Program-made: the position numbers and the translations under genes | Notes under the pieces: generated by a model | The model's database searches: none | Seen by the model: the letters and a program-made list of their open reading frames with translations, nothing else | What the model was told of the DNA's origin: nothing | Virus record (IMG/VR): IMGVR_UViG_3300025828_004167 | Location: 1-64,000 of that record | From: a virus | DNA length: 64,000 nt | Direction: 5' to 3' (one strand) | Part shown: in pieces, positions 3,251 through 19,988 of the stretch | Numbering within the stretch: the first letter of the stretch is position 1 | How the letters are laid out: every line of letters starts with the position of its first letter

Positions 3251-3566
3251 CACTTGGGTACAGTTGACGAAGGACTTCGTCAAGGAATGGCCGGAGGTTT
3301 TGGAGGGACTACAGTTCCAGAACATGCCGGTCAAGTACCTGATGTATATAAACATAATACTCAAGAATAACATCACCATACATTACGACATAGCCAAAGA
3401 ACTGCGTAAAAAGAAGCAGGCCACGATAGCAAAATTTTTGAAAGAAACTATCGAGGCCAACTACCTCAAGATAAAATCTGTGGACCTAAAATTTGACATA
3501 CCTGCCCTGAAAAGAGACATGGAATCTAGGACTTCATTACTAATGGCCAAGACTTTTAAACGATAG
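3222..3566 (+). CDS. hypothetical phage protein, 114 aa
   Basis: Core motif WPEVLEGL..MPVKYL; converges on the DegT gene with an 11-bp 3' overlap. Confidence 0.7.
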   Translation: MPKRQPPKNSTWVQLTKDFVKEWPEVLEGLQFQNMPVKYLMYINIILKNNITIHYDIAKELRKKKQATIAKFLKETIEANYLKIKSVDLKFDIPALKRDMESRTSLLMAKTFKR

Positions 3567-4629
3567 AATTGAATTTTTTAATCACGTAACCGATCTCGTC
3601 ATCAGTCATCAACGGCCAGCAAGGTAGACTCAAAATTGTGTCCGCGACATGTTCCGTGTTTTCCAAATAATTTTTGCTACTATACACAGGTTGTGCATGA
3701 CAGCCTAAAGGCCACATGACTCCTGTCTGTATGCCGGCATCCTGTAATTTATTTTGAATGGTTAACCTGTCTTTTACTTGTATTGTGTACTGATTGTAGA
3801 CATTCTCACACCAATCTGCTGTCTTTACCATGGTGGTTGTTTTTAATTCTTTGTCGTATACAGAAGCGATGCGTCTCCTGTCCTTGTTGTGTGCATCAAT
3901 TTTAGTGATCATGTGATTCAGCACATTTGCCTGTACGGAATCCAACCTCTCATTCCAACCCAGAATTTCGTGTATATATTTGTCTGTGCGACCGTGATCC
4001 CTGGACATGGATATCCTATCTATATAACTTTGATCGCCAACCACAGCACCACCATCACCAAAGCACCACATGTTCTTGGCAGGATAGAAACTGAAACAGG
4101 TGAGATCATTGTATGTTCCGTTCATTTTGCCTTTGTATTTTCCACCAAAACTCTGAGCGGCATCCTGGACCACTGGAATGTTGCCCGCTATACTTTTGAC
4201 TGTGTCCCAGTCACAGGTGTGTCCAAATATGTCCACTCCAACGATTGCCTTTACATTTTTGTTTGCACTCAATATTTCTGCCAAATGATCCGTGTCAATG
4301 GTGTAGTTTTCCTTGTTGCAGTCGGCCCAAATTATTTCAAGTCCCAACTTACTTGCCATCTCTGGTGTGCTAATGAATGTGAAACTTGGAATGACTACCT
4401 TGTCTCCGGGGTTCAATCCAAGGCATTCATAAGCCAAAAGTAGAGCACTCGTACCACTGCTAACTCCAACGGCGGGAGCACCGCAGTACCTGGCTAGGTT
4501 CTTCTCGAATTCTTCAACCTTTGGTCCTTTGATGAACCAACTATTATCAATGCAGTCTTGCACGGCTTTGTCTAATTCTGCCTTTGACTCTTGATATATC
4601 CTGTTTAAATTTGCGTAGGGGACTTCCAT
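3556..4629 (-). CDS. DegT/DnrJ/EryC1/StrS family PLP-dependent sugar aminotransferase (DesV/FdtB-like)
   Basis: SSGTSAL, PSFTFIST, DAAQSFG, FSFYPAKN (PLP lysine), GDGGAV, GWNERLD and LSLP motifs. Confidence 0.92.
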   Translation of the reverse strand: MEVPYANLNRIYQESKAELDKAVQDCIDNSWFIKGPKVEEFEKNLARYCGAPAVGVSSGTSALLLAYECLGLNPGDKVVIPSFTFISTPEMASKLGLEIIWADCNKENYTIDTDHLAEILSANKNVKAIVGVDIFGHTCDWDTVKSIAGNIPVVQDAAQSFGGKYKGKMNGTYNDLTCFSFYPAKNMWCFGDGGAVVGDQSYIDRISMSRDHGRTDKYIHEILGWNERLDSVQANVLNHMITKIDAHNKDRRRIASVYDKELKTTTMVKTADWCENVYNQYTIQVKDRLTIQNKLQDAGIQTGVMWPLGCHAQPVYSSKNYLENTEHVADTILSLPCWPLMTDDEIGYVIKKFNSIV

Positions 4630-5807
4630 TTATTCTCTAATTCTTGTTTCCAATCTAGGCCTTGTGCTTTATATTGTTTCGCTTCGTGTATTAACAAAGT
4701 GGTTGTGTGATCAAAGGCATCAAGAAAACCCACATCAAAAGGTTGTGCTTTGATCCCGGGTCCTTGCAGATGCTGTCTAACGATGTCAGTGACATTGGAG
4801 TTTTTGATGTTTCCAATGATATACCGATCACTGCCTGGTCTATCAAGGAAACCGGTCTCATGGTAAACATAAAGGTTACCCAAACTGTCTATGGATGTCG
4901 CTATCTGTGGCCACCCATGTCGGTCCATTTGTTCGTGCGTGGACATCTTGATAGGACCTGTTGGGTTGCCGTGTCTTACTGAGTGCAAGGCATAGCCATA
5001 GTCTATATGCACATCCGTGTGTTGTTCCACTTCAAGGAAAATCTTATGTAATTTTTCACGTTCCTCATCTGATATGTAGTTGTTGGATTGGGAGAAATCC
5101 TCCCTCAATGTTACAAATGATATCTTGAAATCAGACACACTGTTAATGTCTTTTATCATTCGGAACACACTTCTCACGTCTTCACTGTGCCCTGGCAGTA
5201 TTATCCAATTCACTCCTAATTTTATCTTGCTTCCTGTTGTTGGAACTTTTCTACAGAAGTCCTTTAGGTTCCTGGTAACGATATCAAATGCTTTTTTATT
5301 CTTTGTTACCCTGTAGTAACTTTCCTGGTCATGGCCATATAGGCTTATGCGCATGACTTCTAGATCCAGAATGCCGTGTTGCTTTTCCAAAAAATTTTCA
5401 GACAGAGCATAGCCATTGGTGTACATCTGCATCTTGAATCCTTTGCTGTTGCCGTAACTAATGATCTTGCCTATGTGTGGATTTGTAAGCGGTTCCAGTC
5501 CACCGCTTATCCTAAATCTATCCTGCCAGAATTTTCCTTCCTTGGGATCTTGGTCGATGACCTGTTTGAATACTTCGAAACTATTATCTATGTCCTCCGA
5601 CTGATATTTCGCATTGTAGTTCCTGCCACAGAAAGTGCAGAAGAACTGACAGGTCATTCCCGGATACAAGCCAATCCTGTTAGGGTAAGCGTATGTTCCC
5701 TCCACTGCGTGTTCCAGTGAACCATTGTTCAATAATGGACTAATTGTATTGTTCCAATATCTGTTTGATTCTATTTGATCTTTTTCGTGTTTGTATCCTA
5801 ACCTCAT
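4605..5807 (-). CDS. DesII-like radical SAM enzyme (TDP-4-amino-4,6-dideoxyglucose ammonia-lyase family)
   Basis: GLYPGMTCQFFCTFC (CxxxCxxC), SGGLEPLTNP, YTNGYAL, RISLYG and LREDF match my recollection of Streptomyces DesII; adjacent to a DegT aminotransferase. Confidence 0.75.
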   Translation of the reverse strand: MRLGYKHEKDQIESNRYWNNTISPLLNNGSLEHAVEGTYAYPNRIGLYPGMTCQFFCTFCGRNYNAKYQSEDIDNSFEVFKQVIDQDPKEGKFWQDRFRISGGLEPLTNPHIGKIISYGNSKGFKMQMYTNGYALSENFLEKQHGILDLEVMRISLYGHDQESYYRVTKNKKAFDIVTRNLKDFCRKVPTTGSKIKLGVNWIILPGHSEDVRSVFRMIKDINSVSDFKISFVTLREDFSQSNNYISDEEREKLHKIFLEVEQHTDVHIDYGYALHSVRHGNPTGPIKMSTHEQMDRHGWPQIATSIDSLGNLYVYHETGFLDRPGSDRYIIGNIKNSNVTDIVRQHLQGPGIKAQPFDVGFLDAFDHTTTLLIHEAKQYKAQGLDWKQELENKWKSPTQI

Positions 5808-5815
5808 ATGATTGT

Positions 5816-7108
5816 TTATCCGTGCCTGTCCTCGAAGTATTTTTTTATCCAGTCGAAATCATAACTGCTATAGGGATCGTTGCCCTGCTCTAGGAACTCT
5901 ACGGCATCCAGCGCACCCTTATTGACCCATTCCGCGTTGTCGCCATTGCCTAACGTTAACCATTTTTTCAACCTATATGTGCTTTCCACAGTTGGCTTCT
6001 GCAACTTCAACTTGATTACTTCCCTGAACGCGGTCCTCCAGGCCAACAACGGGGTCTCGTCGAGGTTATTGACAGCACTCAACGTTGGTACTGACTGCAC
6101 CGGTTGGGATAGTGTGAAATCCAATCCCGGCTTGGTTGTTTCTAACACTAATCTTTTATTGTATAGTATGACTCCGTCATGTCCGTACGTGCAGTCAATT
6201 ACACTGTTGTAACAGTCAAAAATGTAATGGCATGGGTGCTTGAGTCTGTCTGGTTGGAAATCAAACTTGAAATCATCTACTACATCAATTTTTGGAAATA
6301 CGGCGAAGAAGTAGTCGGTCTTGCTCATCATCGCGGCCGTCATGTAGGCCAGTGTCTGCCCTTGGACATTCCTGCACCACTGCGTCCTTGGAAATTTGCT
6401 TTTCAGTCTGTTATACCTTTTCTCAGCGCCTGGTTCGTCATATGATATGAATATTATGTCCATGGGTTTAATAGCGTATTGTAGATCAAAGTTCACGTTC
6501 CTGTCTATGTCATAGAATTGTTTCAACCCCTGCCTGTGTGGCACCATCATGATGTCTTTGGTTTGTCCCCATGTGTAAACCTTTTCATCCTCCCAGAAAC
6601 TAGGATAGAAGTCTGGAAGATCTTGATCTTTTAGATCTTTGTTGATCAACCACTGATAGAAAATTTTATTTTTGTAGTATGATTCATAAGGATCACCTAA
6701 CTTGAAATAGGTTTTAGAAATGGGCCTTTGGAAAAGCGTTTCGTGTGGATGATAATTTATGTCTTTGAAATCTCTGAGAAACTTTAAATCTTTCATCTGT
6801 TCCTTGAATTTTTTTGTGGGTATCAACATGACATTCCCTTCTTTGTTGAGTCCTCCCATGGGATGGGTGGTGTACCATACGTGTATCTGGTCACGCTCGT
6901 GCTGTTCAGGAATGTAATCTAGGTCGATGTCGTCTAGTTTGACGAAATTTGAAAAGAACCAGAAGTATTCTGTCTTGACATCACCAACCACAGACTTGAG
7001 GATGTTGAAGTAACTATCGATGAATGGTACAACACGGGTGTTCGCTAGGGGCGATTCTATGTGAGTTGTGTTTTTAAATTTTACCTGTATACTGTCGAAT
7101 CCAGTCAT
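5816..7108 (-). CDS. glycosyltransferase-like protein (two GT-A-like halves, degenerate DxD)
   Basis: C-terminal DIIFISYDEP...YGHDGV...AWRTAFREVIKL; paralogous to 22068..22970. Confidence 0.55.
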   Translation of the reverse strand: MTGFDSIQVKFKNTTHIESPLANTRVVPFIDSYFNILKSVVGDVKTEYFWFFSNFVKLDDIDLDYIPEQHERDQIHVWYTTHPMGGLNKEGNVMLIPTKKFKEQMKDLKFLRDFKDINYHPHETLFQRPISKTYFKLGDPYESYYKNKIFYQWLINKDLKDQDLPDFYPSFWEDEKVYTWGQTKDIMMVPHRQGLKQFYDIDRNVNFDLQYAIKPMDIIFISYDEPGAEKRYNRLKSKFPRTQWCRNVQGQTLAYMTAAMMSKTDYFFAVFPKIDVVDDFKFDFQPDRLKHPCHYIFDCYNSVIDCTYGHDGVILYNKRLVLETTKPGLDFTLSQPVQSVPTLSAVNNLDETPLLAWRTAFREVIKLKLQKPTVESTYRLKKWLTLGNGDNAEWVNKGALDAVEFLEQGNDPYSSYDFDWIKKYFEDRHG

Positions 7109-8033
7109 AGTAACTTTCTAGTCCTTGCCTTAGAGAGAACAGGGGTTTATAACCTAAAAGATCCCTAGCTCTGCTGATGTCCAGAGTGCCACGCATCGGA
7201 TACAATTTGTGCATGCCTATGTCTTTGAGTTCTGACTTGCTCCCAGTTATGTCTATGATGGTCTCCGCCAGCGTCCGGAGGCTTGTGGCGTTTCCCGCCG
7301 TTATGTTGAAACTAGTGTTGGACACCTCTGAGATTGCGGCCTTGATTATGCCATAAGCGGCATCCTGTCTGTATGTGAAGTCCACCTTGTTGTCGCCATT
7401 GTGTAACGTGATGACATCATTGTTCATGGCCCTCTCGAAGAACTTGGATACCACCCTGTCAGGGAGATCGCCTGGCCCGTACACGCCACTGGGTCTAACT
7501 ATCACGTAGTTTAGACCGTCCCGCTGAGCGAACAGTTTGGTCATTCTCTCACCTGTGAGTTTGGCCTCACCGTATATGTTTTGTGGTCTTGTTATGGAAT
7601 CCTCACGAGTGCCATCCTTGAAGTCTCCGTACACCATGCTACTGCTGATGTACACAAATTTCTTGGCGCCAAACTTTGATGCGTGCCATAGTAGATTAGT
7701 TGTGGTATCTATGACTTTAGGTATGCCCAGTATGGGATCCTCGTCCACTATCTTGGCACGTGGATACGTGGCCATATGTATCACGATGTCTGGCGCTGTC
7801 TTAAATGCCCTCAGGCACACATCGCGATCAAGCAGGTCACCGTTGATCACAGAAACGTTCTTGTGGTCCCAGTGACGGGTTCTCCAGGCTATGAGCTTGT
7901 TCAACTCCACAGGCGATATTATACCGTATGTGTCCTTGTTGTCCACACAGATGATGCTGTGCCCTTCCTGTGATAATTTTTCTATGATCTTAGTCCCTAT
8001 GAATCCCAGTCCGCCAGTTATTAAAAATTTCAT
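7074..8033 (-). CDS. NAD-dependent epimerase/dehydratase (extended SDR)
   Basis: ITGGLGFIG Rossmann motif, ISSSMVYG, YGEAK (YxxxK), VRPSGVYGP, DFTY. Confidence 0.92.
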   Translation of the reverse strand: MKFLITGGLGFIGTKIIEKLSQEGHSIICVDNKDTYGIISPVELNKLIAWRTRHWDHKNVSVINGDLLDRDVCLRAFKTAPDIVIHMATYPRAKIVDEDPILGIPKVIDTTTNLLWHASKFGAKKFVYISSSMVYGDFKDGTREDSITRPQNIYGEAKLTGERMTKLFAQRDGLNYVIVRPSGVYGPGDLPDRVVSKFFERAMNNDVITLHNGDNKVDFTYRQDAAYGIIKAAISEVSNTSFNITAGNATSLRTLAETIIDITGSKSELKDIGMHKLYPMRGTLDISRARDLLGYKPLFSLRQGLESYYDWIRQYTGKI

Positions 8034-8182
8034 TAGAATTCCTTCTTTACACCCACAGTTGGATTTTCAACACAACTGTCAGTTATATCTTTAATTGATT
8101 CTTTATCCATATCTATGCTACAACTGGCCGAGGGTTTAATTCCGCAACCAACTAACAATAATAACACAATTAGGTATCTCAT
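8033..8182 (-). CDS. 49-aa predicted lipoprotein (below the ORF-track cutoff)
   Basis: Hand translation MRYLIVLLLLVGCGIKPSASCSIDMDKESIKDITDSCVENPTVGVKKEF. Lipobox LVG-C; ATGA and TAATG coupling to both neighbours. Confidence 0.7.
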   Translation of the reverse strand: MRYLIVLLLLVGCGIKPSASCSIDMDKESIKDITDSCVENPTVGVKKEF

Positions 8183-9651
8183 CCTAGCACTTTCACTCCG
8201 TACTTGCGGGTGAACGCTCGACCATCCTCACGATCATTCACGATAGGCTGTCCCTTTATGTTGAGGCTGGTGTTTAAGAGTATAGGGCAACCGGTCTGCT
8301 TTTTCCATTCTGTGAGCAGTGCGTGGAATCCGGGATTGTCCGTCTTACGCACGGTTTGAACCCTGGATGTGTGATCATGATGTATTATGGCAGGAAACTC
8401 TTTACCATGCGTACACGCCGCTGTAAATTGCATATAAGGGGTGTTTTTGACGGCTTTAGGTAGCTCAAAATAGTCGTTTACATCCTCTTCTAATATGGCC
8501 GGAGCAAACGGTCTAAACTGCTGTCTCTTCTTGATCGAGTTTACCAAATCCTTGATCTCAGGTCCTCGAGGATCTGCTAACAGTGATCTATTACCAAGCG
8601 CCCTAGGTCCAAATTCCGCCCTGCCGCTCGCAACACCAACCATCTTGTTTTCCTTCAATTCTTTGATCAGACTGTCCACGGGATATTCTCCATCTATGTT
8701 GTGTCCCAGGAACGGATGTTGCCAATTGAGGTGTGACTTCTGGTGTGCGGCTATACACCCTAGGCTTGACCCCGCATCACCAGGATTGGGTATGATCCAG
8801 ATGTTGTCAAACAGTCCCATGTCTGCGAGCACCCGGTTGGCGGCACAGTTCAATGCCACTCCTCCAGCATACACCAGATTACGTGATCCGTATCGGCTGG
8901 CTCTCGTCCATAAATCAGCGAGTAGTTCCTCCGTGACTGCTTGTATACTGGCGGCTATGTCCATGACATCCGCGTTTGTCTCCCAGTCACTCAATCCCCT
9001 GTGTAGATTCTTCTTGAGACTGAAAGGTGATTGATTGACAAATTCATCATAGATTTTCTGCTTGTACTTGGGTGTGCCATACGCGGCCATTCCCATCAGG
9101 ATGTACTCCTCTTCCGCCGGTTTCAATCCACAACGATGTGTGAATGCCGAATAAAGTATTCCTATGCTGTGTGGATACTTGATTGTCTCTTTCCTATCGA
9201 TCCATATCTTGTCTGCTGTGGATATAGACACGGTGTCCCACTCACCAATGGCATCCACTGTAAGTATTGTTGCTCCCTCGTCCTTGAACGGTGATGTGAA
9301 ATACCCCGCCGCCGCGTGTGAGTCATGGTGCTTTACGTACTCGTCAATCTTTATGTCAAAGTGATCCAAGTGCCACTGTGGCATCTCGGTATAGCTCATG
9401 GCAAGTCCATACTGTCCCGCGTAGAACTGCCTGGTCTTTTTCAACAATGGCTTCTCGTAGTACACCACCTTGTCGAAAGGTCCAAAGGTACGTGCCTCGT
9501 CCACTATCTTTTGGTTGAGGTAGTGGTCATTCTTGACCTTGCTGTATCTCTCCGCGTGTGCGGCCCACAGGATCTCTCCTATGCCTGAACTATAGTCAAC
9601 CACTGCCATGGCGGCATCATGATTCATGCAGTTAATTCCCAGTATTCTCAT
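8179..9651 (-). CDS. NodU/CmcH/TobZ family carbamoyltransferase
   Basis: HDAAM, HHDSHAA, DAIGE, MGMAAYG, GGVALNC, EFGPRALGNRS, FRPFAP and LNTSLN motifs. Confidence 0.95.
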   Translation of the reverse strand: MRILGINCMNHDAAMAVVDYSSGIGEILWAAHAERYSKVKNDHYLNQKIVDEARTFGPFDKVVYYEKPLLKKTRQFYAGQYGLAMSYTEMPQWHLDHFDIKIDEYVKHHDSHAAAGYFTSPFKDEGATILTVDAIGEWDTVSISTADKIWIDRKETIKYPHSIGILYSAFTHRCGLKPAEEEYILMGMAAYGTPKYKQKIYDEFVNQSPFSLKKNLHRGLSDWETNADVMDIAASIQAVTEELLADLWTRASRYGSRNLVYAGGVALNCAANRVLADMGLFDNIWIIPNPGDAGSSLGCIAAHQKSHLNWQHPFLGHNIDGEYPVDSLIKELKENKMVGVASGRAEFGPRALGNRSLLADPRGPEIKDLVNSIKKRQQFRPFAPAILEEDVNDYFELPKAVKNTPYMQFTAACTHGKEFPAIIHHDHTSRVQTVRKTDNPGFHALLTEWKKQTGCPILLNTSLNIKGQPIVNDREDGRAFTRKYGVKVLG

Positions 9652-10359: not shown

Positions 10360-10362
10360 GTG

Positions 10363-10467
10363 CTATTTGTATATGAAAGGATCTTTTTTCTTAAGTTCTT
10401 TTAATCTCTTCCTGTACCGAATCTCTTCTCTGATCTTGTTCCACATTCTCTTAAACCATCTGATCAT
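10363..10467 (-). CDS. 34-aa basic peptide (below the ORF-track cutoff)
   Basis: Hand translation MIRWFKRMWNKIREEIRYRKRLKELKKKDPFIYK; GGAGG SD upstream; fills the gap between two genes. Confidence 0.65.
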   Translation of the reverse strand: MIRWFKRMWNKIREEIRYRKRLKELKKKDPFIYK

Positions 10468-11272
10468 TTTTTCCTCCTGTTATTTTTTCAAAAGTTGGTA
10501 ACATTAATTTTACAGCATCCGCATGCGCTTGGTCAAGTGGATGTGTGGTGCCACGTGGGTAGTCATTGAGCAGTGCCCATTGGTTGAAACCCATATAACG
10601 TTCTCCAAAAAAGAACCATTTGGTAAAATCTATCTCAGAATAGAGTGCTTTCATGAAGGGGTCCTGATCTTTGTGTGGTGTCAGTTCGTTATAGAAAAGG
10701 CTGTTATCTGCCAGTGTGAACATGAATGGTATTTTTTTCTTTTCCAATATGTTCTGCAACCATATGATAGATTTCCAACTGAGGTATATCTCGTGGTATT
10801 GGTTTGCCGCATATTTGTAAATGCTTTCGGCGAAATCCCTCACTCCAGTTTCACGGAAAAGTTCTTTCCTCACACGCCACTGTTCTTGTTGTGTCTCCGA
10901 ACTATGCATGGTCCTGAACGCCTCTTCGTTGCCTGCGTTTGTGTCCCATGGTGATATCGATGCCCATCTAGTATCTTCTAATACCTTGTGCCTGGGCATG
11001 GCCCAGTCGTACCTAGACAGAAAACTCCACATCACGACTACACAATCTATACGGTCATTGTTAGCAACAGCATTGAAAGTCCTTCTCGCTATAGCAGAAT
11101 TACCTAATCCGCCAAAAGCGGAGCACAGATACACAGTATCATCGTCGTCCCTAGAAGTTTTGAATAACCTGTGTGCCCATGAGTTCTTTGATGGAGTCTT
11201 GCCGTCCTGATCGTCGCTGAGCTCGTTGCCCAATGTAAAACTGCATCCTCCCGCTATAAATTTCTTAGTCAT
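10451..11272 (-). CDS. SGNH/GDSL-like hydrolase or acyltransferase
   Basis: N-terminal AGGCSFTLG (GxS block I), GGLGN, VVMWS and C-terminal THP...H; paralog of 19972..20715. Confidence 0.5.
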   Translation of the reverse strand: MTKKFIAGGCSFTLGNELSDDQDGKTPSKNSWAHRLFKTSRDDDDTVYLCSAFGGLGNSAIARRTFNAVANNDRIDCVVVMWSFLSRYDWAMPRHKVLEDTRWASISPWDTNAGNEEAFRTMHSSETQQEQWRVRKELFRETGVRDFAESIYKYAANQYHEIYLSWKSIIWLQNILEKKKIPFMFTLADNSLFYNELTPHKDQDPFMKALYSEIDFTKWFFFGERYMGFNQWALLNDYPRGTTHPLDQAHADAVKLMLPTFEKITGGKNDQMV

Positions 11273-12431
11273 ATATCTTCAACACTGTATTTAAAAGTGG
11301 GAACACCTCTCCAAAATTTTCCTTCCTGTACTGGTCCGTCTGTAGTATACGCTGTTTCCTCTGTTCTCTGATCTCGGCTGTGTCCCTGTCCGCGGCGTTC
11401 ATGAAACGTATGCTGGGTTGATAATCTGTGAGCATGTGGTACCTGTCCGTCACTATGTCCTTGATCTGCCGTGGCAGTGTCTGTATGTTGAACACGTCTG
11501 GATCAAAACAGGTGTTCACATAGAAGAACTTGGGCTGATACTGTGCCACCCACAGGGCGATCTTAGCCCAGTTGAACACGTTGAATATCGAGACCGTTGA
11601 ACATATCTGGAAGTCCATGTTCGCAGTCTTCATCTCCTTGAACTTCACAAGGTTGGCGCTGACCTCACGCCAGTTTGCCGGGTGCCTTTGGTACTCAAAT
11701 GGTTCTCCCACGTCGTCTATGCTGAACGCTATTTCTACATGCTTGAAGTAACCCCATAGGTCGAATATGTCCTTGGGTGGTAACTGTGTGCCGTTGGTGT
11801 TGTAGTGTATGTCTATGTTCTTGGCGTAGCCCTTCTCCACACAGTACATCAAGATCTTGAAGTGATCTCGAATCATGAACGGCTCGCCTCCCGTGAACTC
11901 GAAGTACTCCACATGCTTGAGATCTTCCTTGAGGTCCTCGAAGAACTGTGGGTTACGTTTTGGCCATCCACCCTCACGCAGATTTTTCAGTGCCACAGGG
12001 TTCTTTCCGTAGTCCAGTTCCTCTTGTGCCCATTTGCTGGAACTCCAGGAACCGCATATCCTACACTTTAGATTGCAAACGTTGCCTAACTTAAAGTCAA
12101 TGAATTTCAACATTGGCTCGCTATTAGGTGTCCAGTCCGTCAAGCTCTTCTTCATCTTGTATATAGAGTTTTGTCTTTTACTCGTTTTTCCTGCGTCTTC
12201 TTCTTGCCAGCAACTCTGACAACCTACAGGACGTTCTCCTTTACGGAACTGCTCACGTAAATTTTGCATGTATCCAGTATCCTGTATTGATTTGAGGCTT
12301 TGTTTGTAAACTTTGACCTCTGGAACACTACCCTTGTAGAGACAGCAGGGAGATGCACCGCCGTTAACGTCTACTTCTAAGTGGGTCCATGGCAAGGGAC
12401 AAATGTTTGATTTTATATATTTGTCCACCAT
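11265..12431 (-). CDS. radical SAM protein with N-terminal twitch/SPASM domain
   Basis: CPLPW...PCC...CQSCW then CNLKCRIC, GGEP, YNTN. Confidence 0.88.
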   Translation of the reverse strand: MVDKYIKSNICPLPWTHLEVDVNGGASPCCLYKGSVPEVKVYKQSLKSIQDTGYMQNLREQFRKGERPVGCQSCWQEEDAGKTSKRQNSIYKMKKSLTDWTPNSEPMLKFIDFKLGNVCNLKCRICGSWSSSKWAQEELDYGKNPVALKNLREGGWPKRNPQFFEDLKEDLKHVEYFEFTGGEPFMIRDHFKILMYCVEKGYAKNIDIHYNTNGTQLPPKDIFDLWGYFKHVEIAFSIDDVGEPFEYQRHPANWREVSANLVKFKEMKTANMDFQICSTVSIFNVFNWAKIALWVAQYQPKFFYVNTCFDPDVFNIQTLPRQIKDIVTDRYHMLTDYQPSIRFMNAADRDTAEIREQRKQRILQTDQYRKENFGEVFPLLNTVLKIYD

Positions 12432-13732
12432 TCTAGAATTTCCTTGTCTTTGGCTAATATTTTTTTAATGTCAGTTGCCCTCACCCGGTCAAGCCTTTCT
12501 ACTGTTTCTTTTCCTGCTACCAACCCCTCTTTATACTTGTCATGGCCATATGTCTCCTCATATGTTGGTTTTTCCTTTAAATCTTTTAGAGCACTGAAAA
12601 AGTAAATGTGATTTTTAAGTCTTGACTTGTTCTTTTCTAAAAATTCATCCACGATTCTGTTGAGTATTTTACGTGGCAGGCACATCGGAGACCATATGTT
12701 AGTTGGATCAAAACCAAACACCCTTTTGGCCAGAAGATCAATGTCAAGCTCTTCAGCGGCGTCTAACATTTCCTGTAGACCTACCATACCCGGCATTGTC
12801 ATTGTGAGATCCATCCTCAGGTCACGCCTTGTCTTTGTGAACTTCCTTGCGTACTTCATGTTCGCCACCCACTCTTGCCATTTCAATCCTGTACGCACAT
12901 ACTCACCCACTTCGCCTGCACCGTCTATACTGGCAAGTATGCTCCAGTGTTTGAATTTACTCAGGATGTCATCGAACAGATTCATTCCAAAGAAATTGAT
13001 CCTACTCATATTGGAGTTGTACCTGATGCTGACACTGTCATGGTAGTCCAACTCAATTATCCTTTTCATCGACTCCCAATGTATTTTCCACATGAGTGGC
13101 TCTCCTCCACACCAGTAAATCTCTTTGATTGTCTTCGATTCTACAGCATCCTTGAACTCGTGTACAATGACTTTGTCATGGAAACTGTCTATTTCCGCCT
13201 TTATGTCTTTCCGCATCCACATCTGCGAGGGCTTGTTTGGATCCCATTCGCCTGTATCTCTGTTCTCCGCCTCCCAACTAGAGCTTAACATGTCTCCACA
13301 CATCCTACACTTGAAGTTGCAGAGGTTATTGAACCTGTAGTCCCAACTAGTTACTTTCATGTCAGTGTGTCCATCATCTCCTGTCTTTTCATAGGCTTCA
13401 TCAATCTGGGATTCAAACAACTTGTTGAAATGAGTCCTGTATGTTGCGACAGACAACAGTTTGCCATTACACACCTGGCACTGCGGTATCTCCTTGCCTT
13501 GCATAAGATCTACCCTGACCTTCTTCATGTAATCGCTATTCCAATGTTCATCCAGTGTATCTGGAGAGAAAGGCTGTGACTTTTTGTTTAGGTCGATGTA
13601 CTGGTTGAATGTTTTAGAATCCTCACGTGAACTGCAACACAGTCTACGCTCCATCTGTGGCGAAAGATATGTATGTGTCCATGGAGCCATACAAAAAGTT
13701 TTATTGCCTTCGCTGGGTTTAATTCTCTTCAT
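12413..13732 (-). CDS. radical SAM protein with N-terminal twitch/SPASM domain
   Basis: CMAPW...LCC...CQVC then CNFKCRMC, GGEP, YNSN, SIDG. Confidence 0.88.
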   Translation of the reverse strand: MKRIKPSEGNKTFCMAPWTHTYLSPQMERRLCCSSREDSKTFNQYIDLNKKSQPFSPDTLDEHWNSDYMKKVRVDLMQGKEIPQCQVCNGKLLSVATYRTHFNKLFESQIDEAYEKTGDDGHTDMKVTSWDYRFNNLCNFKCRMCGDMLSSSWEAENRDTGEWDPNKPSQMWMRKDIKAEIDSFHDKVIVHEFKDAVESKTIKEIYWCGGEPLMWKIHWESMKRIIELDYHDSVSIRYNSNMSRINFFGMNLFDDILSKFKHWSILASIDGAGEVGEYVRTGLKWQEWVANMKYARKFTKTRRDLRMDLTMTMPGMVGLQEMLDAAEELDIDLLAKRVFGFDPTNIWSPMCLPRKILNRIVDEFLEKNKSRLKNHIYFFSALKDLKEKPTYEETYGHDKYKEGLVAGKETVERLDRVRATDIKKILAKDKEILEWWTNI

Positions 13733-15002
13733 ACAACTCCATCAGTTCTGGGAACACTTCTAACATATTTTCATCTCTAATCGAGTCAAGTTTTTTCATT
13801 GTATCCTTAAACTGCTGTATATCCTTGCTATTATCACGTCTCATCATGTAATCCATTCCTGACTCGTACCCCTTAGTTGCTCTAGTGAGATGATCTAACG
13901 GACGTAACCATTCTAAATGTTTTTCATATTTCTCTTTTACTTTCTGCTTGTAAGATTCCGGCAACAGGTCTATCCTCTGCGCATATGGAAACTGTAAAAG
14001 ATTGAAGTTAAAGTCCTGTGGTTTCAAAAGACCTTGGTCTACCCAATTTCTGTGGAAATCTGGTATGTGTAGTGCATTAATCAGACCCACTGTTGAACTA
14101 ATGTAGAAATCAACTTGTGGACATACCTCTAACATCCTTTTCCTGTTTGCTACCACATCCTCCCAAACAGTACCTTTACGCATCAGTTCTCCTCTTTTGC
14201 CTTCGGCATCTAAACTAGCACCAATCGACACTGAATCAAACTTGTTCCATAATTCAAGAACATCTATATCCTTATATTTGGTCTTTGTGAAATTGGTGTT
14301 GTATATCAGTCTTACATGGTACATCTTGCGCCTATCCAATTCTTTGAGTATCCTGTAGTGTTCCTCCATGATGATCGGTTCGCCGCCAGCAAAATAAAAC
14401 TGCTCTACATGATCAAACTGTTCCAGCATCTGGGTCCAGATGTCGTCACTACTTCTGCCCACCCTCATAATCTTTGCATGATTAGGCGGAGCGCCTGTAA
14501 GTTTCTTGTGATCCTCGTACCAGTTAGAACTGAACCATGTGCCACAACTCCTACACGCAAGATTACAGAGATTGCTGAACCTGATGTCCCAGTACTTGAT
14601 CATGAAGTCGGCCGTGCCGTCTGGTTGTGTGTTGTCCACCATGCCTATGTTGTGTCCGAAATGCTTGTTAGAACTCAATCTCAGACTGAAGAATCCCGAC
14701 TTCTCCTGATCATAGCATTTTGTACAGTGTTTGCTGGGTTTGTTTGCCAGCATGTTATTCCTGATGCCTTTCATCTCGTTGTTGTTGAAAACTTCCGCCA
14801 TTGAATTCTGGTTGAGGTCACCCACTGGATACTTGTCCAACGCGAAACAGCAAGGATACGCCCTGCCGTCTGGAAAGGCGTGTATATGCAACCATGGCAT
14901 CATACAGAAAGTGTCGCTGTCTATCAACAGTTCTTTCTGTCGATCAGTCATGTCCTTGATTTTTAATTTCTCGGGCTCCTTGGCCCCGTAATCATATGCC
15001 AC
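13719..15002 (-). CDS. radical SAM protein with N-terminal twitch/SPASM domain
   Basis: CMMPW...PCC...CTKC then CNLACRSC, GGEP, YNTN. Confidence 0.88.
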   Translation of the reverse strand: MAYDYGAKEPEKLKIKDMTDRQKELLIDSDTFCMMPWLHIHAFPDGRAYPCCFALDKYPVGDLNQNSMAEVFNNNEMKGIRNNMLANKPSKHCTKCYDQEKSGFFSLRLSSNKHFGHNIGMVDNTQPDGTADFMIKYWDIRFSNLCNLACRSCGTWFSSNWYEDHKKLTGAPPNHAKIMRVGRSSDDIWTQMLEQFDHVEQFYFAGGEPIIMEEHYRILKELDRRKMYHVRLIYNTNFTKTKYKDIDVLELWNKFDSVSIGASLDAEGKRGELMRKGTVWEDVVANRKRMLEVCPQVDFYISSTVGLINALHIPDFHRNWVDQGLLKPQDFNFNLLQFPYAQRIDLLPESYKQKVKEKYEKHLEWLRPLDHLTRATKGYESGMDYMMRRDNSKDIQQFKDTMKKLDSIRDENMLEVFPELMELYEEN

Positions 15003-16347
15003 GATACCATTCTCCTATGATCGGGAAAGTCTTTTCAAAATTTTTTCCTCTTCTTTTATCATATTGCACAAAGTAATTTTTGAACCATTTAACCACTTTG
15101 TCTCTATCCTTAATTTGATTAGATTCATTCTTAAGATACTCTATCAGTCTTTCTACTTGTTCCACCTCCATGGCATGAAGCAAGTGTGAATTTCTATTTT
15201 GCGAAAGCCAGTTAGTCAGCTCATCTGCAAATCTTTGTCTCAATTCATGTGGAAGTATCAAACAACTTTGAAAATTTGGAAACCTCAGAATATTTAAAGT
15301 GAATGTGACCGCATCACTACTGTTGGCTTTTTGTTTTATTTCCAAACACCAATCTAAGTAGTCCACTAAACCTTCAAGAGACAATGCGCCAATTGTACAC
15401 ATAGAATGCATTGAGCTGAAAGACTTTGATTCAGCAATCTTGTTGAAATTTTTGACCCACATATTCCAATTCAATCCATCCCTGATGTACTCTGCTTTCT
15501 CTCCCATTGATTCGTTACTGCTATAAATGTGAAGTCCTCGGATAGTCTTTGCCTTTTGTATCAATTTTTCTATGAGTGATTCTTTACTATTTAAATTGGT
15601 GTTGATTGCGAAATAGGAAACGTTCGAATCACCCAACGCCATGAGGTCCAACAACTTCCATGTGTGTTTGCTCATTAAAGGTTCGCCCCCTGTGAGTCTT
15701 AGATGCGTTAGTGTGCGTTTTAGATCTGACTCCCACCATTTGAAGAAGGCCTTTACGTAAGGATTATTGTCCTCATCAAACCTACTAGCGTTGTCATGAG
15801 GATGGCCGTAATGATCATGACCGTTTGGTCCTATGTCTGTATAACCTTTGTTAGTTTTGATGTCCTTTGCCCAAGTGGTGGAAAATGCGGGGTTACAATA
15901 ACTACAAGCAAAATTACAAGTTCTGTCAAAGCTCAATTCCAAGTATCTAAGATCAAAGTCATCCTCCGGATCAGATTCAAATGCTTTTTGTAACTCGTCG
16001 TCTGTGTACAACACAGACTTGTAAACCCTATCGCTTATTTTGTCTGCGTTGAGGTTTTCAACACGCCAGCAATAATCACAACCGTTACACTGGATTCCTT
16101 TCTGCATCTCTGCACGTTCCTTTTTCTTTTGCGGGGTGTTGCTCAGCAGTTTTGGATTTTGTAACACTGCTTCAGCGTCTACCTGGTGTGGCAATGGATG
16201 GTGACACGCCGTTGTCTGTCCTGTATTCAACCAAACCGTGGCGTAATACCATTTGGCTCCACAGAAGGAATTGCTTTTTGTGTCTAGCACTCTTTCTTTA
16301 TACTGAGAAAAACTTTCTCCAGGCAATAAATGTTGATCACTACTCAT
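14992..16347 (-). CDS. radical SAM protein with N-terminal twitch/SPASM domain
   Basis: CGAKW...CHHP...CDYCW then CNFACSYC, GGEP; closest in motif pattern to 20708..22078. Confidence 0.88.
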   Translation of the reverse strand: MSSDQHLLPGESFSQYKERVLDTKSNSFCGAKWYYATVWLNTGQTTACHHPLPHQVDAEAVLQNPKLLSNTPQKKKERAEMQKGIQCNGCDYCWRVENLNADKISDRVYKSVLYTDDELQKAFESDPEDDFDLRYLELSFDRTCNFACSYCNPAFSTTWAKDIKTNKGYTDIGPNGHDHYGHPHDNASRFDEDNNPYVKAFFKWWESDLKRTLTHLRLTGGEPLMSKHTWKLLDLMALGDSNVSYFAINTNLNSKESLIEKLIQKAKTIRGLHIYSSNESMGEKAEYIRDGLNWNMWVKNFNKIAESKSFSSMHSMCTIGALSLEGLVDYLDWCLEIKQKANSSDAVTFTLNILRFPNFQSCLILPHELRQRFADELTNWLSQNRNSHLLHAMEVEQVERLIEYLKNESNQIKDRDKVVKWFKNYFVQYDKRRGKNFEKTFPIIGEWYRGI

Positions 16348-19495: not shown

Positions 19496-19988
19496 CTTGT
19501 TCCTCCACAATTTTGCCAAAGTATTCCTTCATCTCGTACAATAGATCCATGTTGTATGATCCCATGTTGCTACTGACCTTTGCTCCATGGGTATGGTAAT
19601 CTAGCAAGAAGTCTATAACGGGTGACTGCATATTATATTCTATGTAACCATTATGTCCAAGGTACAAATTGGATTCCCATTTGAAGTCATTCTTATCTTG
19701 CCAACTAGGGATCTCAGGTACTTGGGTAGTTTCCCACAACATGTTTTTTATGTCAATGTCGTTAAAGTATATCTTTTTGACTTCTACAAATTTTTCACTT
19801 TCTTTCTTCATATCTTTGCCATAGTGCATGATACAGAATTTGAATGTCCCCTTGCCTACACAAAATTCAAAGTCCTCCGACACATTGTCTCCCACAAAAT
19901 CATGCGCTACCTTGCCATTAACCAACACTTTGCATTTTGGATTTCCAAATGCTTCATAGTCTATCCTACATTTAATTCTTTCTTCCAT
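19479..19988 (-). CDS. hypothetical protein, 169 aa
   Basis: Overlaps both neighbours in the operon; beta-rich; no motif recognised. Confidence 0.65.
   Translation of the reverse strand: MEERIKCRIDYEAFGNPKCKVLVNGKVAHDFVGDNVSEDFEFCVGKGTFKFCIMHYGKDMKKESEKFVEVKKIYFNDIDIKNMLWETTQVPEIPSWQDKNDFKWESNLYLGHNGYIEYNMQSPVIDFLLDYHTHGAKVSSNMGSYNMDLLYEMKEYFGKIVEEQDGKSQ

What the first reader, a model, noticed from the sequence alone, without database searches (positions are those of the whole stretch)
3556..9651. DesII-like radical SAM plus DesV-type aminotransferase, SDR, GT and carbamoyltransferase: desosamine-like chemistry in a phage
Seen: adjacent genes for carbamoyltransferase, SDR, GT-like protein, DesII-like rSAM and DegT aminotransferase. 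Known: DesII comes from actinomycete macrolide clusters. It deaminates TDP-4-amino-4,6-dideoxyglucose to a 3-keto sugar and can also oxidise TDP-quinovose at C3, after which DesV aminates C3. The DegT motif here (FSFYPAKN..GDGG) is DesV/FdtB-like, and no DesI-type 4-aminotransferase is in the window. The SDR has SSSMVYG rather than the STDEVYG of 4,6-dehydratases. Inference: the phage makes a 3-amino-deoxy sugar, possibly carbamoylated, by a variant route in which the rSAM acts as a dehydrogenase/dehydratase or uses a host 4-amino sugar.
Basis: partly seen in the sequence, partly recalled or inferred. Interest (0 to 1): 0.8.

Follow-up and report, generated by a model that had tools for sequence, protein, structure and literature searches.

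The report
Phage radical-SAM amino-sugar gene cassette
A giant aquatic phage carries a conserved set of five enzymes, including a relative of the antibiotic-pathway enzyme DesII, that most likely turns a host sugar nucleotide into an unusual amino sugar for decorating the virus or the host surface.

Summary
Five co-oriented minus-strand genes lie at the stated coordinates. They encode a DegT aminotransferase, a DesII-family radical SAM enzyme, a two-domain GT-A-like protein, a non-dehydratase SDR and an O-carbamoyltransferase.

The rSAM is a clear DesII homologue (PDB 8HZV, E 1.7e-67). It keeps every cluster, SAM-binding and proposed acid/base residue named for DesII. But it scores 317 bits against an equivalog cut-off of 450, lacks about 88 N-terminal residues, and falls in a separate clade from authentic DesII.

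The aminotransferase is nearest to the 3-aminotransferases QdtB and WbpE. The record holds no second DegT gene.

The cassette recurs in 16 of 16 related IMG/VR jumbo-phage loci. Nine of these have an aminotransferase on both sides of the rSAM. Other metagenome loci replace the aminotransferase with a Gfo/Idh/MocA domain fused to the rSAM.

Best reading: a host NDP-sugar is converted by a radical step to a keto sugar, then transaminated, carbamoylated and transferred. The product, the regiochemistry and the acceptor are all inferred.

The scan noted a similar island earlier on other DNA (e1-6063355). I class it as a new variant of a known kind, of moderate interest.

The parts
3556..4629 (-). 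DegT-family PLP sugar aminotransferase (357 aa), of the downstream 'AT2' type
   Evidence: PF01041 296.6 bits. The best solved relatives are 7b0d 251.6, 8e75 220.9, 2oga 206, WbpE 199.5 and QdtB 198.2 bits. Perosamine synthetase scores 132.5, ArnB 112 and 2po3 94.4. The Schiff-base Lys K185 lies in FSFYPAKN. It is 39-42% identical to the AT downstream of the rSAM in relatives.
4605..5807 (-). DesII-family radical SAM enzyme (400 aa), N-terminally shortened phage subfamily
   Evidence: TIGR04426 317.1 bits against a cut-off of 450. DesII structure 8hzv: E 1.7e-67, residues 15-384 aligned to 103-477. C53/C57/C60, G102-E105, R153/S155/Y157, D237, E317 and D363 match the residues named for DesII, and F238 stands at DesII Y324; all are invariant in 16 homologues. 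It lies in a separate clade from authentic DesII.
5816..7108 (-). Two-domain protein with nucleotide-sugar-transferase (GT-A-like) folds (430 aa); candidate glycosyltransferase
   Evidence: No Pfam, NCBIfam, PHROG or PDB sequence match. AF2 model pLDDT 89.3, pTM 0.83. Foldseek top hits are all GT-A glycosyltransferases at E about 1e-4. VIA-align gives Z 9-11 for residues 213-351 against B4GALNT1, ThuS and SpsA, and Z about 9 for residues 1-131 against sugar-1-P nucleotidyltransferases. 1211 homologous clusters were found.
7074..8033 (-). Extended SDR of the NDP-sugar epimerase/oxidoreductase type (319 aa), not a canonical 4,6-dehydratase
   Evidence: PF01370 145.1 bits. TIGR01181 98.7 bits against a cut-off of 365. 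The best solved relatives are UDP-hexose and UDP-GlcA 4-epimerases at about 95-105 bits. SSS[MN]VYG and YxxxK are conserved in 16 orthologues, with no Asp/Glu pair after the Ser/Thr.
8179..9651 (-). O-carbamoyltransferase of the NodU/NovN/TobZ type (490 aa)
   Evidence: PF16861 186.5 and PF02543 148.2 bits. phrog_1601 315.8 bits. PDB: NovN 189.6, GdmN 165.9 and TobZ 151 bits. dN/dS is 0.096 against the L002 orthologue.
10451..11272 (-). Island context: SGNH/GDSL-fold hydrolase or acyl-esterase-like protein (273 aa); paralogue at 19972-20715
   Evidence: No Pfam family. AF2 pLDDT 76.9. Foldseek top hits are all GDSL, TesA or acetyl-xylan esterases, E 3e-4, probability 1.0. The paralogy is shown.
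11265..16347 (-). Island context: four tandem N-terminal-twitch radical SAM genes
   Evidence: NF033640 scores 366.5, 317.5, 415.4 and 286.7 bits against a cut-off of 170.
17009..22970 (.). Island context: a further block of tailoring genes. B12-binding rSAM (17009-18487, +); rSAM/SPASM (18488-19519, -); SGNH paralogue (19972-20715, -); fifth N-twitch rSAM (20708-22078, -); 300-aa paralogue of the GT-A-like C-domain (22068-22970, -)
   Evidence: Pfam. NF033640 320.7 bits for 20732-22018. The unkC profile hits 22068-22970 at E 3.7e-27.

Best explanation
The five genes form a nucleotide-sugar tailoring cassette of an aquatic jumbo myophage. It sits inside a roughly 20-kb island with eight radical SAM genes, next to the tail-fibre genes.

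Proposed pathway:
1. The phage takes an activated sugar from the host. It has no nucleotidyltransferase of its own.
2. The SDR, an epimerase/oxidoreductase type rather than a 4,6-dehydratase, adjusts that sugar.
3. The DesII-family radical SAM enzyme abstracts the hydrogen at the carbinol carbon next to C4. It expels the C4 substituent and leaves a 3-keto-4-deoxy sugar. In relatives with two aminotransferases the leaving group is an amino group. In this phage it is either a 4-amino group supplied from elsewhere or a hydroxyl.
4. The translationally coupled DegT aminotransferase converts the keto sugar into a 3-amino sugar.
5. The carbamoyltransferase O-carbamoylates a remaining hydroxyl.
6. 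The GT-A-like protein transfers the sugar to a glycan on the virion or on the host envelope.

Shown here: the homologies, the conserved catalytic residues, the conserved synteny and the alternative partners.
Inferred: the substrate, the regiochemistry, the order of steps, the product and the acceptor.
For: - The rSAM is a DesII homologue with all named catalytic and SAM-binding residues conserved.
- The AT overlaps the rSAM by 25 nt and is closest to the 3-aminotransferases QdtB and WbpE. It keeps the Schiff-base Lys.
- The cassette is conserved with rSAM identity down to 47%: AT in 16 of 16 loci, SDR in 15 of 16, GT-A-like gene in 15 of 16, CT in 11 of 16.
- Nine of 16 loci have an AT-rSAM-AT arrangement, which matches the DesI-DesII-DesV logic.
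- In other metagenome loci the rSAM is instead fused or adjacent to a Gfo/Idh/MocA oxidoreductase, beside the same CT, SDR and GT-A-like genes, with no AT within 6 kb. This fits an rSAM product that is a keto sugar, which is then either aminated or reduced.
- The nearest non-phage-type relative examined (L037) sits among GT4 glycosyltransferases, a DegT gene and a PMT_2 transferase.
- No nucleotidyltransferase was found in 0 of 5 related records, including records 99% and 95% complete.
- Nonsynonymous divergence from the closest relative is low: dN 0.07 for the rSAM, 0.09 for the AT, and CT dN/dS 0.096.
- RNA-library contigs with 0-2 mismatches lie on each of the five genes. This is only a weak hint, because such libraries can contain DNA.
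Against: - The protein fails the DesII equivalog cut-off (317 against 450) and lies outside the clade of authentic DesII.
- It lacks about 88 N-terminal residues of the DesII helical domain, whose role in substrate binding is unknown.
- The window and its 72.8-kb record have no second AT, no 4,6-dehydratase-type SDR and no nucleotidyltransferase.
- The upstream ATs of relatives are also closest to 3-aminotransferases, not to DesI or other 4-aminotransferases. Their role as the 4-aminating enzyme is therefore unsupported by sequence.
- The GT-A-like protein has no sequence family and no evident canonical DxD motif.
- No experiment links any of these genes to a sugar.
Confidence: 0.5

Rival explanations
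1. The rSAM acts only as a C3 dehydrogenase, as DesII does in vitro on TDP-quinovose. A host NDP-hexose is oxidised to the 3-keto sugar without loss of the C4 substituent. The AT then makes a 3-amino-3-deoxy sugar, so no deoxygenation occurs.
For: DesII dehydrogenates TDP-D-quinovose (PMC11434129, read). The window, L003/L004, L006 and L010/L011 have a single AT of the 3-aminotransferase-like type and no cassette-encoded source of a 4-amino sugar. E317 and D363 are compatible with either outcome.
Against: No family member is known to use dehydrogenation physiologically (recalled). Cells normally use Gfo/Idh/MocA or ketoisomerase enzymes for this step, which makes an oxygen-sensitive rSAM a costly choice (established knowledge). 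The AT-rSAM-AT sandwiches in 9 of 16 relatives are better explained by a lyase step.
Confidence: 0.2
2. The cassette belongs to a small-molecule pathway, an aminoglycoside- or nucleoside-antibiotic-like natural product made during infection. It does not build a glycan on a virion or cell surface.
For: The carbamoyltransferase is closest to the antibiotic-tailoring enzymes NovN, GdmN and TobZ. The island holds B12-rSAM and SPASM/twitch rSAM genes. Locus L014 also carries a tryptophan-halogenase-family gene and an AMP-binding enzyme beside the cassette.
Against: A GT-A-like transferase is conserved in 15 of 16 loci, and the island abuts tail-fibre genes. No scaffold-forming enzyme (cyclitol synthase, PKS or NRPS) was seen among the ORFs scanned in the window up to 28.6 kb or in L014. 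The nearest cellular-type context examined is a GT-rich glycan locus.
Confidence: 0.1
3. The sugar is destined for the phage DNA, as a hypermodified base glycosylation.
For: Large phages often glycosylate DNA (general knowledge). A ThyX gene lies near the cassette in L014.
Against: No thymidylate-synthase-family hydroxymethylase was found in 0 of 5 records, including records 99% and 95% complete. The island is embedded in the tail and baseplate region.
Confidence: 0.05
4. In this particular phage the pathway is decaying. The upstream AT present in the closest relative L002 is absent here, so the rSAM and AT are remnants without a substrate.
For: L002 has an extra DegT gene between the SDR and the GT-A-like gene that the window lacks. 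L002's own downstream AT carries an in-frame TAA.
Against: All five window genes are intact, with catalytic residues kept and low dN. Single-AT cassettes recur in three other lineages. Near-identical copies occur in at least 7 DNA runs.
Confidence: 0.05

Closest known systems
DesII (dTDP-4-amino-4,6-dideoxy-D-glucose ammonia-lyase) with DesI and DesV of the desosamine pathway, Streptomyces venezuelae
   Same: Same superfamily, at E 1.7e-67 to PDB 8HZV. The CX3CX2C, GGE, ribose and beta-6 motifs and the E408 and D456 equivalents are conserved. A DegT aminotransferase of the DesV/QdtB-like group lies immediately downstream. Many relatives have an AT on both sides.
   Different: - Below the equivalog cut-off and in a separate clade.
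- About 88 N-terminal residues are missing.
- No DesI-like AT by sequence, no RmlA/RmlB-type genes and no N-methyltransferase were seen.
- It is partnered with a carbamoyltransferase and a GT-A-like protein.
- It is encoded by a phage. The roles of DesI and DesV are recalled knowledge.
QdtB/FdtB/WbpE-type routes to 3-amino sugars
   Same: The window AT is closest to QdtB (198 bits) and WbpE (199.5 bits) among the named solved enzymes.
   Different: Those routes make the 3-keto sugar with a 3,4-ketoisomerase or a Gfo/Idh/MocA dehydrogenase (recalled). Here a radical SAM enzyme sits in that position.
AprD4/AprD3-type radical SAM diol dehydratase plus reductase (apramycin C3' deoxygenation)
   Same: A radical SAM lyase makes a keto intermediate that a second enzyme then processes. 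AprD4 is cited as a radical SAM dehydratase in PMC11434129. The Gfo/Idh/MocA::DesII-like fusions found here would fit the same logic.
   Different: No sequence relationship to AprD4 was tested. In the window the partner is an aminotransferase, not a reductase.
Host recognition cluster / 'LPS gene' islands of aquatic T4-like myophages (pelagimyophages, cyanomyophages; PMC7029224)
   Same: A variable island beside the tail-fibre genes holds glycosyltransferases and radical SAM cassettes (passages read). The earlier scan finding e1-6063355 describes such an island in another giant aquatic phage.
   Different: That paper names no DesII-like enzyme, aminotransferase or carbamoyltransferase; 'aminotransferase' and 'carbamoyl' each occur 0 times in its main text. 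The present phage belongs to a different lineage, an Atu_ph07/PA5oct-like jumbo phage.
O-carbamoyltransferases NodU, TobZ, NovN and GdmN
   Same: Both Pfam domains score above cut-off, and PDB matches reach 151-190 bits.
   Different: The window protein is 490 aa, against 576-702 aa for the solved enzymes. Its acceptor is unknown. That NodU and TobZ act on a hexose 6-OH is recalled knowledge.

Membership tests
DesII equivalog (TIGR04426, dTDP-4-amino-4,6-dideoxy-D-glucose ammonia-lyase) | Score at or above NCBIfam's curated cut-off (450 bits) | tested here: not met
   317.1 bits. Phage relatives score 314-351. Authentic DesII-type P0151 scores 722.7.
DesII equivalog (TIGR04426) | Placement in the clade of authentic DesII in a family tree | tested here: not met
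   In a quick IQ-TREE of 56 rows, the window lies in a 22-row clade (SH-aLRT 99). P0151 nests with the Gfo/Idh/MocA fusion forms in another 22-row group (SH-aLRT 83). Only one authentic DesII representative was in the tree.
DesII superfamily | CX3CX2C cluster motif and the GGE, ribose and beta-6 SAM-binding motifs | tested here: met
   C53/C57/C60, G102-G103-L104-E105, R153/S155/Y157 and D237/F238 align to C141/C145/C148, G187-E190, R238/S240/Y242 and D323/Y324. All are invariant in 16 sequences.
DesII superfamily | Proposed acid/base residues E408 and D456 (D456A is inactive) | tested here: met
   E317 and D363 align to them and are invariant.
DesII superfamily | Three-domain architecture with an N-terminal six-helix domain (residues 1-131) | tested here: not met
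   The alignment starts at DesII residue 103. The 400-aa protein begins 8 nt after the upstream gene (stop to start), so the first ~88 residues are truly absent. The 455-466-aa phage relatives keep more of this domain.
DesII pathway | Companion 4-aminotransferase, 4,6-dehydratase and nucleotidyltransferase | tested here: not met
   The 72.8-kb record has one DegT gene, one SDR without the dehydratase motif, and no PF00483 hit. The record is only 21% complete.
DesII pathway | Deamination of a 4-amino-4,6-dideoxy NDP-hexose | not testable with these tools
   This needs anaerobic enzymology.
DegT/DnrJ/EryC1 sugar aminotransferases, 3-aminotransferase group | Pfam PF01041 above cut-off and the Schiff-base lysine | tested here: met
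   296.6 bits against a cut-off of 19.8. K185 is present.
DegT/DnrJ/EryC1 sugar aminotransferases, 3-aminotransferase group | Closer to characterised 3-aminotransferases than to 4-aminotransferases | tested here: met
   QdtB 198.2 and WbpE 199.5 bits, against perosamine synthetase 132.5, ArnB 112 and dTDP-4-amino-4,6-dideoxygalactose transaminase 93.6. This rests on bit scores only, not on a curated tree. Regiospecificity itself cannot be tested here.
NDP-hexose 4,6-dehydratases (RmlB type) | Asp/Glu pair after the catalytic Thr (the TDE motif, recalled) and the TIGR01181 cut-off | tested here: not met
   SSSMVYG is found in the window and SSS[MN]VYG in all 16 orthologues. TIGR01181 scores 98.7 bits against 365.1.
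O-carbamoyltransferases (Carbam_trans_N + Carbam_trans_C) | Both Pfam domains above cut-off | tested here: met
   148.2 and 186.5 bits. NodU equivalog scores 150.7 bits against a cut-off of 1000, so it is not NodU itself.
GT-A fold glycosyltransferases (the 430-aa protein) | GT-A fold | tested here: met
   AF2 pLDDT 89.3. Foldseek top hits are all GT-A enzymes at E about 1e-4. VIA-align gives Z 9.5-10.9 with 135-181 aligned residues for residues 213-351, only modestly above the tool's stated noise level of Z 7-8.
GT-A fold glycosyltransferases (the 430-aa protein) | Membership of a sequence family, and a DxD metal/nucleotide motif | tested here: inconclusive
   No Pfam family for the protein or for 7 orthologues. 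By eye the consensus has FPKxD where GT2 enzymes have DxD. IspD-like and nucleotidyltransferase folds score nearly as well.

The most novel reading that the evidence does not exclude
A widespread clade of aquatic jumbo phages has recruited a DesII-type radical SAM enzyme as a general 'make a 3-keto-4-deoxy sugar' module. It works directly on host NDP-hexoses as a diol dehydratase, with no 4-amino intermediate. The module is plugged combinatorially into either an aminotransferase (amino sugar) or a fused Gfo/Idh/MocA reductase (deoxy sugar). Together with 5-9 twitch-type rSAM enzymes per record or genome, a carbamoyltransferase and SGNH enzymes, it would build a hypermodified glycan on the tail fibres that sets host range.
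Probability: 0.15. Interest if true: 0.8.

Novelty: new variant of a known kind. Interest (0 to 1): 0.55.

Why it matters
DesII is the textbook radical SAM sugar deaminase, and it is known from macrolide antibiotic clusters. Three things follow from finding a conserved sister subfamily in abundant aquatic jumbo phages.

First, radical deoxy-amino-sugar chemistry would extend to viruses. The phage enzymes are paired with aminotransferases, carbamoyltransferases and GT-A-like transferases, and elsewhere fused to Gfo/Idh/MocA reductases.

Second, this supplies natural variants for asking what decides among deamination, dehydration and dehydrogenation. They include an N-terminally truncated form, single-AT and double-AT contexts, and reductase fusions.

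Third, these phages may invest heavily in oxygen-sensitive Fe-S enzymes to build an unusual glycan next to their host-recognition genes.

I found no paper that links DesII or its enzyme name with phages. Automatic JGI annotation already uses the name for some of these metagenome proteins.

Tried and rejected
- **Cultured phages.** A blastn search of 3000-10500 against 50,697 phage records gave one 134-nt hit. A tblastn search with the rSAM gave no match.
- **Single-protein scan of viral contigs.** It found nothing. The alignment-based scan was needed.
- **Genome-contig scan.** It returned only two 24%-identical rSAM hits because the patterns were narrow. This says nothing about bacteria.
- **Promoter and terminator scan.** 26 promoter-like sites against 16.4 ± 4.6 expected, and 6 terminator-like sites against 7.0 ± 2.6. 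No usable operon boundary emerged.
- **dN/dS against L002.** Synonymous sites were saturated for 4 of 5 genes, so only dN values and the CT ratio are usable.
- **Literature look-up of PDB codes.** Searching 8E75, 7N63, 8VR2, 7B0D and 5U1Z gave nothing relevant. The identities of those entries are not used. That 2oga is DesV and 2po3 is DesI is recalled.
- **Pfam on the long orthologues of the 430-aa protein.** Nothing above noise.
- **Atlas search.** It returned only unnamed viral clusters and a 0.85 lead to Glycos_transf_2.
- **DNA-modification reading.** Weakened by 0 of 5 records with a thymidylate-synthase-family gene.
- **Place look-up in earlier findings.** Empty.
- **RNA-library contigs.** They cover parts of all five genes, but many bins have no cover. 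These are contigs, so neither strand nor expression level can be read.
- **Not opened.** Supplements of PMC11434129 (docking figures, mutant data) and part 3 of that paper were not read. They may list further substrate-binding residues.

Full report
**What is in the sequence**

The region 3556-9651 holds five minus-strand ORFs at exactly the coordinates given.
- A 490-aa carbamoyltransferase: Carbam_trans_N 148 bits, Carbam_trans_C 186 bits.
- A 319-aa extended SDR: Epimerase family, 145 bits.
- A 430-aa protein with no Pfam, NCBIfam, PHROG or PDB sequence match.
- A 400-aa radical SAM protein.
- A 357-aa DegT aminotransferase, 296.6 bits.

The genes are tightly packed. The AT and rSAM overlap by 25 nt, and the SDR and the 430-aa gene overlap by 35 nt. 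The quoted motifs are real: CQFFCTFC, FSFYPAKN..GDGG and SSSMVYG.

The window is the first 64 kb of a 72.8-kb IMG/VR virus record that CheckV rates 21% complete. It carries baseplate, hub and tail-fibre genes. Its baseplate wedge is 35-42% identical to those of jumbo phages Atu_ph07, Phosso, SCTP-2 and PA5oct. The host is unknown. Near-identical DNA occurs in 7 runs labelled freshwater metagenome (86-95% of sampled words). Runs labelled salt marsh hold 31-49%.

**The radical SAM enzyme**

Its best NCBIfam match is TIGR04426 rSAM_desII, at 317.1 bits and E 1.8e-94. The next family scores 47.6 bits. The curated equivalog cut-off is 450.

Against the PDB it matches only DesII: 8hzv at E 1.7e-67, with residues 15-384 aligned to 103-477.

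I read parts 1 and 2 of 3 of the DesII structure paper (PMC11434129). It names these residues:
- the cluster cysteines C141, C145 and C148;
- the GGE motif G187-E190;
- the ribose motif R238/S240/Y242;
- the beta-6 residues D323/Y324;
- E408, which is proposed to hydrogen-bond the C3'-OH and the C4'-NH3+ (the E408A and E408Q mutants remain active);
- D456, whose D456A mutant is inactive.

In the HMMER alignment these map to C53/C57/C60, G102-E105, R153/S155/Y157, D237/F238, E317 and D363. All are invariant in an alignment of 16 homologues that goes down to 48% identity.

The phage protein lacks about the first 88 residues of DesII's N-terminal six-helix domain. This is genuine, because the ORF starts 8 nt after the upstream gene's stop.

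**How the family looks at large**

A full HMMER scan of 1.84 billion cluster representatives found only 50 with E ≤ 1e-30. Of the 34 best that I scanned with Pfam, 19 are 753-905-aa fusions. These have an N-terminal Gfo/Idh/MocA oxidoreductase domain and a C-terminal DesII-like domain.

Among the 32 proteins scored against TIGR04426, one unfused 486-aa representative (P0151, 722.7 bits) and two fusions (P0154, 627.4; P0128, 453.8) pass the cut-off. Five phage-type proteins score 314-351.

I built a quick IQ-TREE of 56 rows. It held 16 phage-type sequences, 35 representatives (the fusion proteins cut to the rSAM part) and 5 outgroups. All phage-type sequences fall in one 22-row clade (SH-aLRT 99). 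P0151 pairs with a fusion form deep inside a different 22-row group (SH-aLRT 83). The tool flagged long branches and compositional bias, and only one authentic DesII representative was present.

The window protein is therefore a member of the DesII superfamily but not of the DesII clade proper.

**The partners in the window**

The AT's best solved relatives are 7b0d (251.6 bits), 8e75 (220.9), 2oga (206), WbpE (199.5) and QdtB (198.2). The named 4-aminotransferases score much lower: perosamine synthetase 132.5, ArnB 112, dTDP-4-amino-4,6-dideoxygalactose transaminase 93.6. 2po3 scores 94.4. QdtB and WbpE are C3 aminotransferases (established knowledge). That 2oga is DesV and 2po3 is DesI is recalled.

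The SDR scores about 95-105 bits to UDP-hexose and UDP-GlcA 4-epimerases, and similarly to one dehydratase. Its SSS[MN]VYG motif lacks the Asp/Glu pair of 4,6-dehydratases, and this holds in all 16 orthologues.

The carbamoyltransferase matches NovN, GdmN and TobZ at 151-190 bits.

The 430-aa protein folds with high confidence: pLDDT 89.3, pTM 0.83, from an alignment of 18 sequences. It has two nucleotide-sugar-transferase-like domains. Foldseek's top hits are all GT-A glycosyltransferases (K4CP, SunS, ThuS, RmlT) at E about 1e-4. VIA-align gives Z 9.5-10.9 for residues 213-351 against B4GALNT1, ThuS, SunS and SpsA. It gives Z about 9 for residues 1-131 against GlmU-, HddC- and RfbF-type nucleotidyltransferases. 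IspD-type folds score nearly as high. 'GT-like' is thus supported at the fold level only.

**Conservation of the cassette**

An alignment-based scan of IMG/VR gave 16 loci with rSAM identity of 47-88%, on contigs of up to 345 kb. They include near-identical pairs, so they represent about 9-10 lineages.

A tblastn search with the window's proteins found the following next to the rSAM:
- an AT in 16 of 16 loci;
- the SDR in 15 of 16;
- the 430-aa homologue in 15 of 16;
- the carbamoyltransferase in 11 of 16;
- N-twitch rSAM genes in 12 of 16;
- the divergently placed DUF2201 metallopeptidase/VWA gene in 14 of 16.

The misses lie at contig or locus ends.

The aminotransferase content varies.
- Nine loci have a DegT gene on both sides of the rSAM or cassette: L002, L007, L009 and L012-L017. 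In L014, from a 99%-complete 345-kb genome, the order is SDR, AT1, rSAM, AT2.
- The window, L003/L004, L006 and L010/L011 have one AT.
- L005 and L008 are cut.

The window's AT groups with the downstream AT2 type (39-42% identity). The upstream ATs fall into three mutually distant types (identity 31% or less). All 12 ATs compared keep the Schiff-base lysine.

The closest relative, L002, has an extra DegT gene between the SDR and the 430-aa gene, which the window lacks. L002's own AT2 carries an in-frame TAA.

The upstream ATs of L014 and L002 are also closest to QdtB, 2oga and WbpE among solved structures. Sequence therefore does not identify them as DesI-like 4-aminotransferases.

**What the phage genomes lack or add**

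No sugar-1-phosphate nucleotidyltransferase (PF00483) is found in the window's record. None is found in 0 of 5 related records either, including records 99% and 95% complete. The starting sugar nucleotide must therefore come from the host.

The complete relative encodes, far from the cassette, a GDP-mannose 4,6-dehydratase-like protein (408.2 bits, cut-off 415) and a GalE (285.5 bits, cut-off 262.3).

No thymidylate-synthase-family gene occurs in 0 of 5 records. This weakens a DNA-glycosylation reading.

**A wider survey of contexts**

A metagenome scan with the non-phage-labelled members of the clade returned 79 loci. In a tblastn survey with my phage-derived queries, most distant loci showed no recognisable neighbour, and that is uninformative. 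The informative contexts were these:
- SDR-AT-rSAM-AT-430-aa homologue (L050, L051), and AT-rSAM-AT (L108).
- SDR-rSAM-AT-430-aa homologue-CT (L046, on a 179-kb contig; L048 and L049 are partial).
- CT, then Gfo/Idh/MocA plus rSAM, then SDR, then a homologue of the 430-aa C-domain, then an N-twitch rSAM, with no AT within 6 kb (L060, L061, L062, L064, L068; L067 and L079 are partial).

Pfam confirmed that L064 has a 771-aa Gfo/Idh/MocA::rSAM fusion directly after the carbamoyltransferase. No DegT was found among the 14 ORFs of that locus that I scanned (of 21 listed).

L037, a relative 70% identical to P0125, sits in a cellular-looking glycan locus. Its neighbours are a PMT_2 transferase, an FAD oxidoreductase, a Gfo/Idh/MocA gene, two GT4 glycosyltransferases and a DegT gene at 407.8 bits.

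Gfo/Idh/MocA enzymes include NDP-sugar 3-ketoreductases and 3-dehydrogenases (recalled). This pattern fits an rSAM product that is a keto sugar, which is then either transaminated or reduced.

**The surrounding island**

Beyond the five genes, the minus strand continues with:
- a 187-aa unknown;
- an SGNH/GDSL-fold protein (10451-11272; pLDDT 76.9; Foldseek top hits all GDSL, TesA or acetyl-xylan esterases);
- four tandem N-terminal-twitch rSAM genes (NF033640, 287-415 bits);
- a B12-binding rSAM on the plus strand;
- an rSAM/SPASM protein;
- a second SGNH paralogue;
- a fifth N-twitch rSAM;
- a 300-aa paralogue of the GT-A-like C-domain.

Tail-fibre-like genes follow. The earlier scan finding e1-6063355 describes a comparable island in another genome, and my data agree with it.

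**Most likely mechanism**

Shown: the homologies, the conserved residues, the synteny and the alternative partners.

Inferred:
1. A host NDP-hexose is adjusted by the SDR.
2. The rSAM abstracts H-3 and expels the C4 substituent, giving a 3-keto-4-deoxy sugar.
3. The AT makes the 3-amino sugar.
4. The carbamoyltransferase modifies a remaining hydroxyl.
5. The GT-A-like protein transfers the sugar.

My rough odds for the rSAM step are:
- lyase on a 4-amino sugar, as in DesII: about 0.35 to 0.4;
- dehydratase on a 4-hydroxy sugar: about 0.2;
- dehydrogenase only: about 0.2;
- something else: the rest.

The double-AT sandwiches favour the first option. The single-AT and AT-less (Gfo fusion) cassettes, together with the 3-aminotransferase-like character of the upstream ATs, favour the second and third. 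The acceptor is untested. It could be virion, host envelope, a small molecule or DNA. The position beside the tail fibres and the conserved transferase make a glycan the best guess.

**Expression and constraint**

Contigs from four metatranscriptome libraries lie on each of the five genes. They are 180-630 nt long with 0-2 mismatches. The tool warns that DNA can be present in RNA libraries, so this is only a hint.

Against L002, nonsynonymous divergence is low: dN 0.073 for the rSAM, 0.086 for the AT, and CT dN/dS 0.096. Synonymous sites are saturated for the other genes.

**Literature**

The 'DesII' plus 'phage' search listed 5 of 6 papers, and none of their titles or abstract starts concerns a phage enzyme. 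The enzyme name plus 'phage' gave 0 papers.

PMC7029224 describes host recognition clusters with glycosyltransferases and rSAM cassettes in pelagimyophages (passages read). PMC5332604 notes a T4-like marine viral genome with 12 rSAM genes (passage read). JGI's automatic annotation already labels some of these metagenome proteins as the DesII reaction.

**Verdict**

The enzyme works like, and descends with, DesII but is not a member of the DesII clade. The 'missing DesI' is a feature of this variant and of an incomplete record, not of the lineage as a whole. I class the cassette as a new variant of a known kind, of moderate interest (0.55).

Noticed in passing
window 11265-16347, 17009-19519 and 20708-22078: Seven further radical SAM genes lie within 11 kb of the cassette. 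Five are N-terminal-twitch type (NF033640, 287-415 bits), one is B12-binding and one is SPASM. Near-complete relatives carry about 9 NF033640 genes above cut-off. Their substrates are unknown.
   Followed up: partly
proteins P0124-P0154 (environmental); L064:5125-7440: Most environmental DesII-family representatives are 750-905-aa fusions of a Gfo/Idh/MocA oxidoreductase domain with the rSAM domain. The authentic DesII-type sequence nests among them in the tree. This may be a widespread 4-deoxygenation module that has not been characterised.
   Followed up: partly
L003:6918-9920, L006:5598-9017, L015:11188-14094, L007:11230-13824: Orthologues of the 430-aa GT-A-like protein are 537-1139 aa long. 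They carry 1-9 N-terminal tandem copies of a sub-module of about 55-85 aa that matches positions 40-95 of the N-domain profile.
   Followed up: partly
window 371-1612 (+): A DUF2201 metallopeptidase plus VWA-like protein, which PHROGs labels 'HNH endonuclease', sits divergently beside the cassette in 14 of 16 related loci.
   Followed up: no
window 43474-56112 (-): A single 4212-aa ORF lies directly upstream of the baseplate wedge gene.
   Followed up: no
L014:16188-18897, L014:3131-3808, L014:5586-6767: In the 345-kb relative, the cassette is flanked by a tryptophan-halogenase-family gene (306 bits), an AMP-binding enzyme, a ThyX and a Na+/H+ exchanger-family membrane protein.
   Followed up: no
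L002:10179-11252 (G005:C1:33595-34608): In the closest relative, the orthologue of the window's aminotransferase carries one in-frame TAA, while an extra upstream DegT gene is intact. It may be a real pseudogene or an assembly error.
   Followed up: partly
window 10451-11272 and 19972-20715: Two paralogous SGNH/GDSL-fold proteins have no Pfam match. They are candidate sugar O-acyl esterases or transferases.
   Followed up: partly
L024:2678-3388 and L024:1423-2472: The closest relative's record encodes a GTP cyclohydrolase I (FolE, 181.8 bits) next to a GalE (333.7 bits).
   Followed up: no
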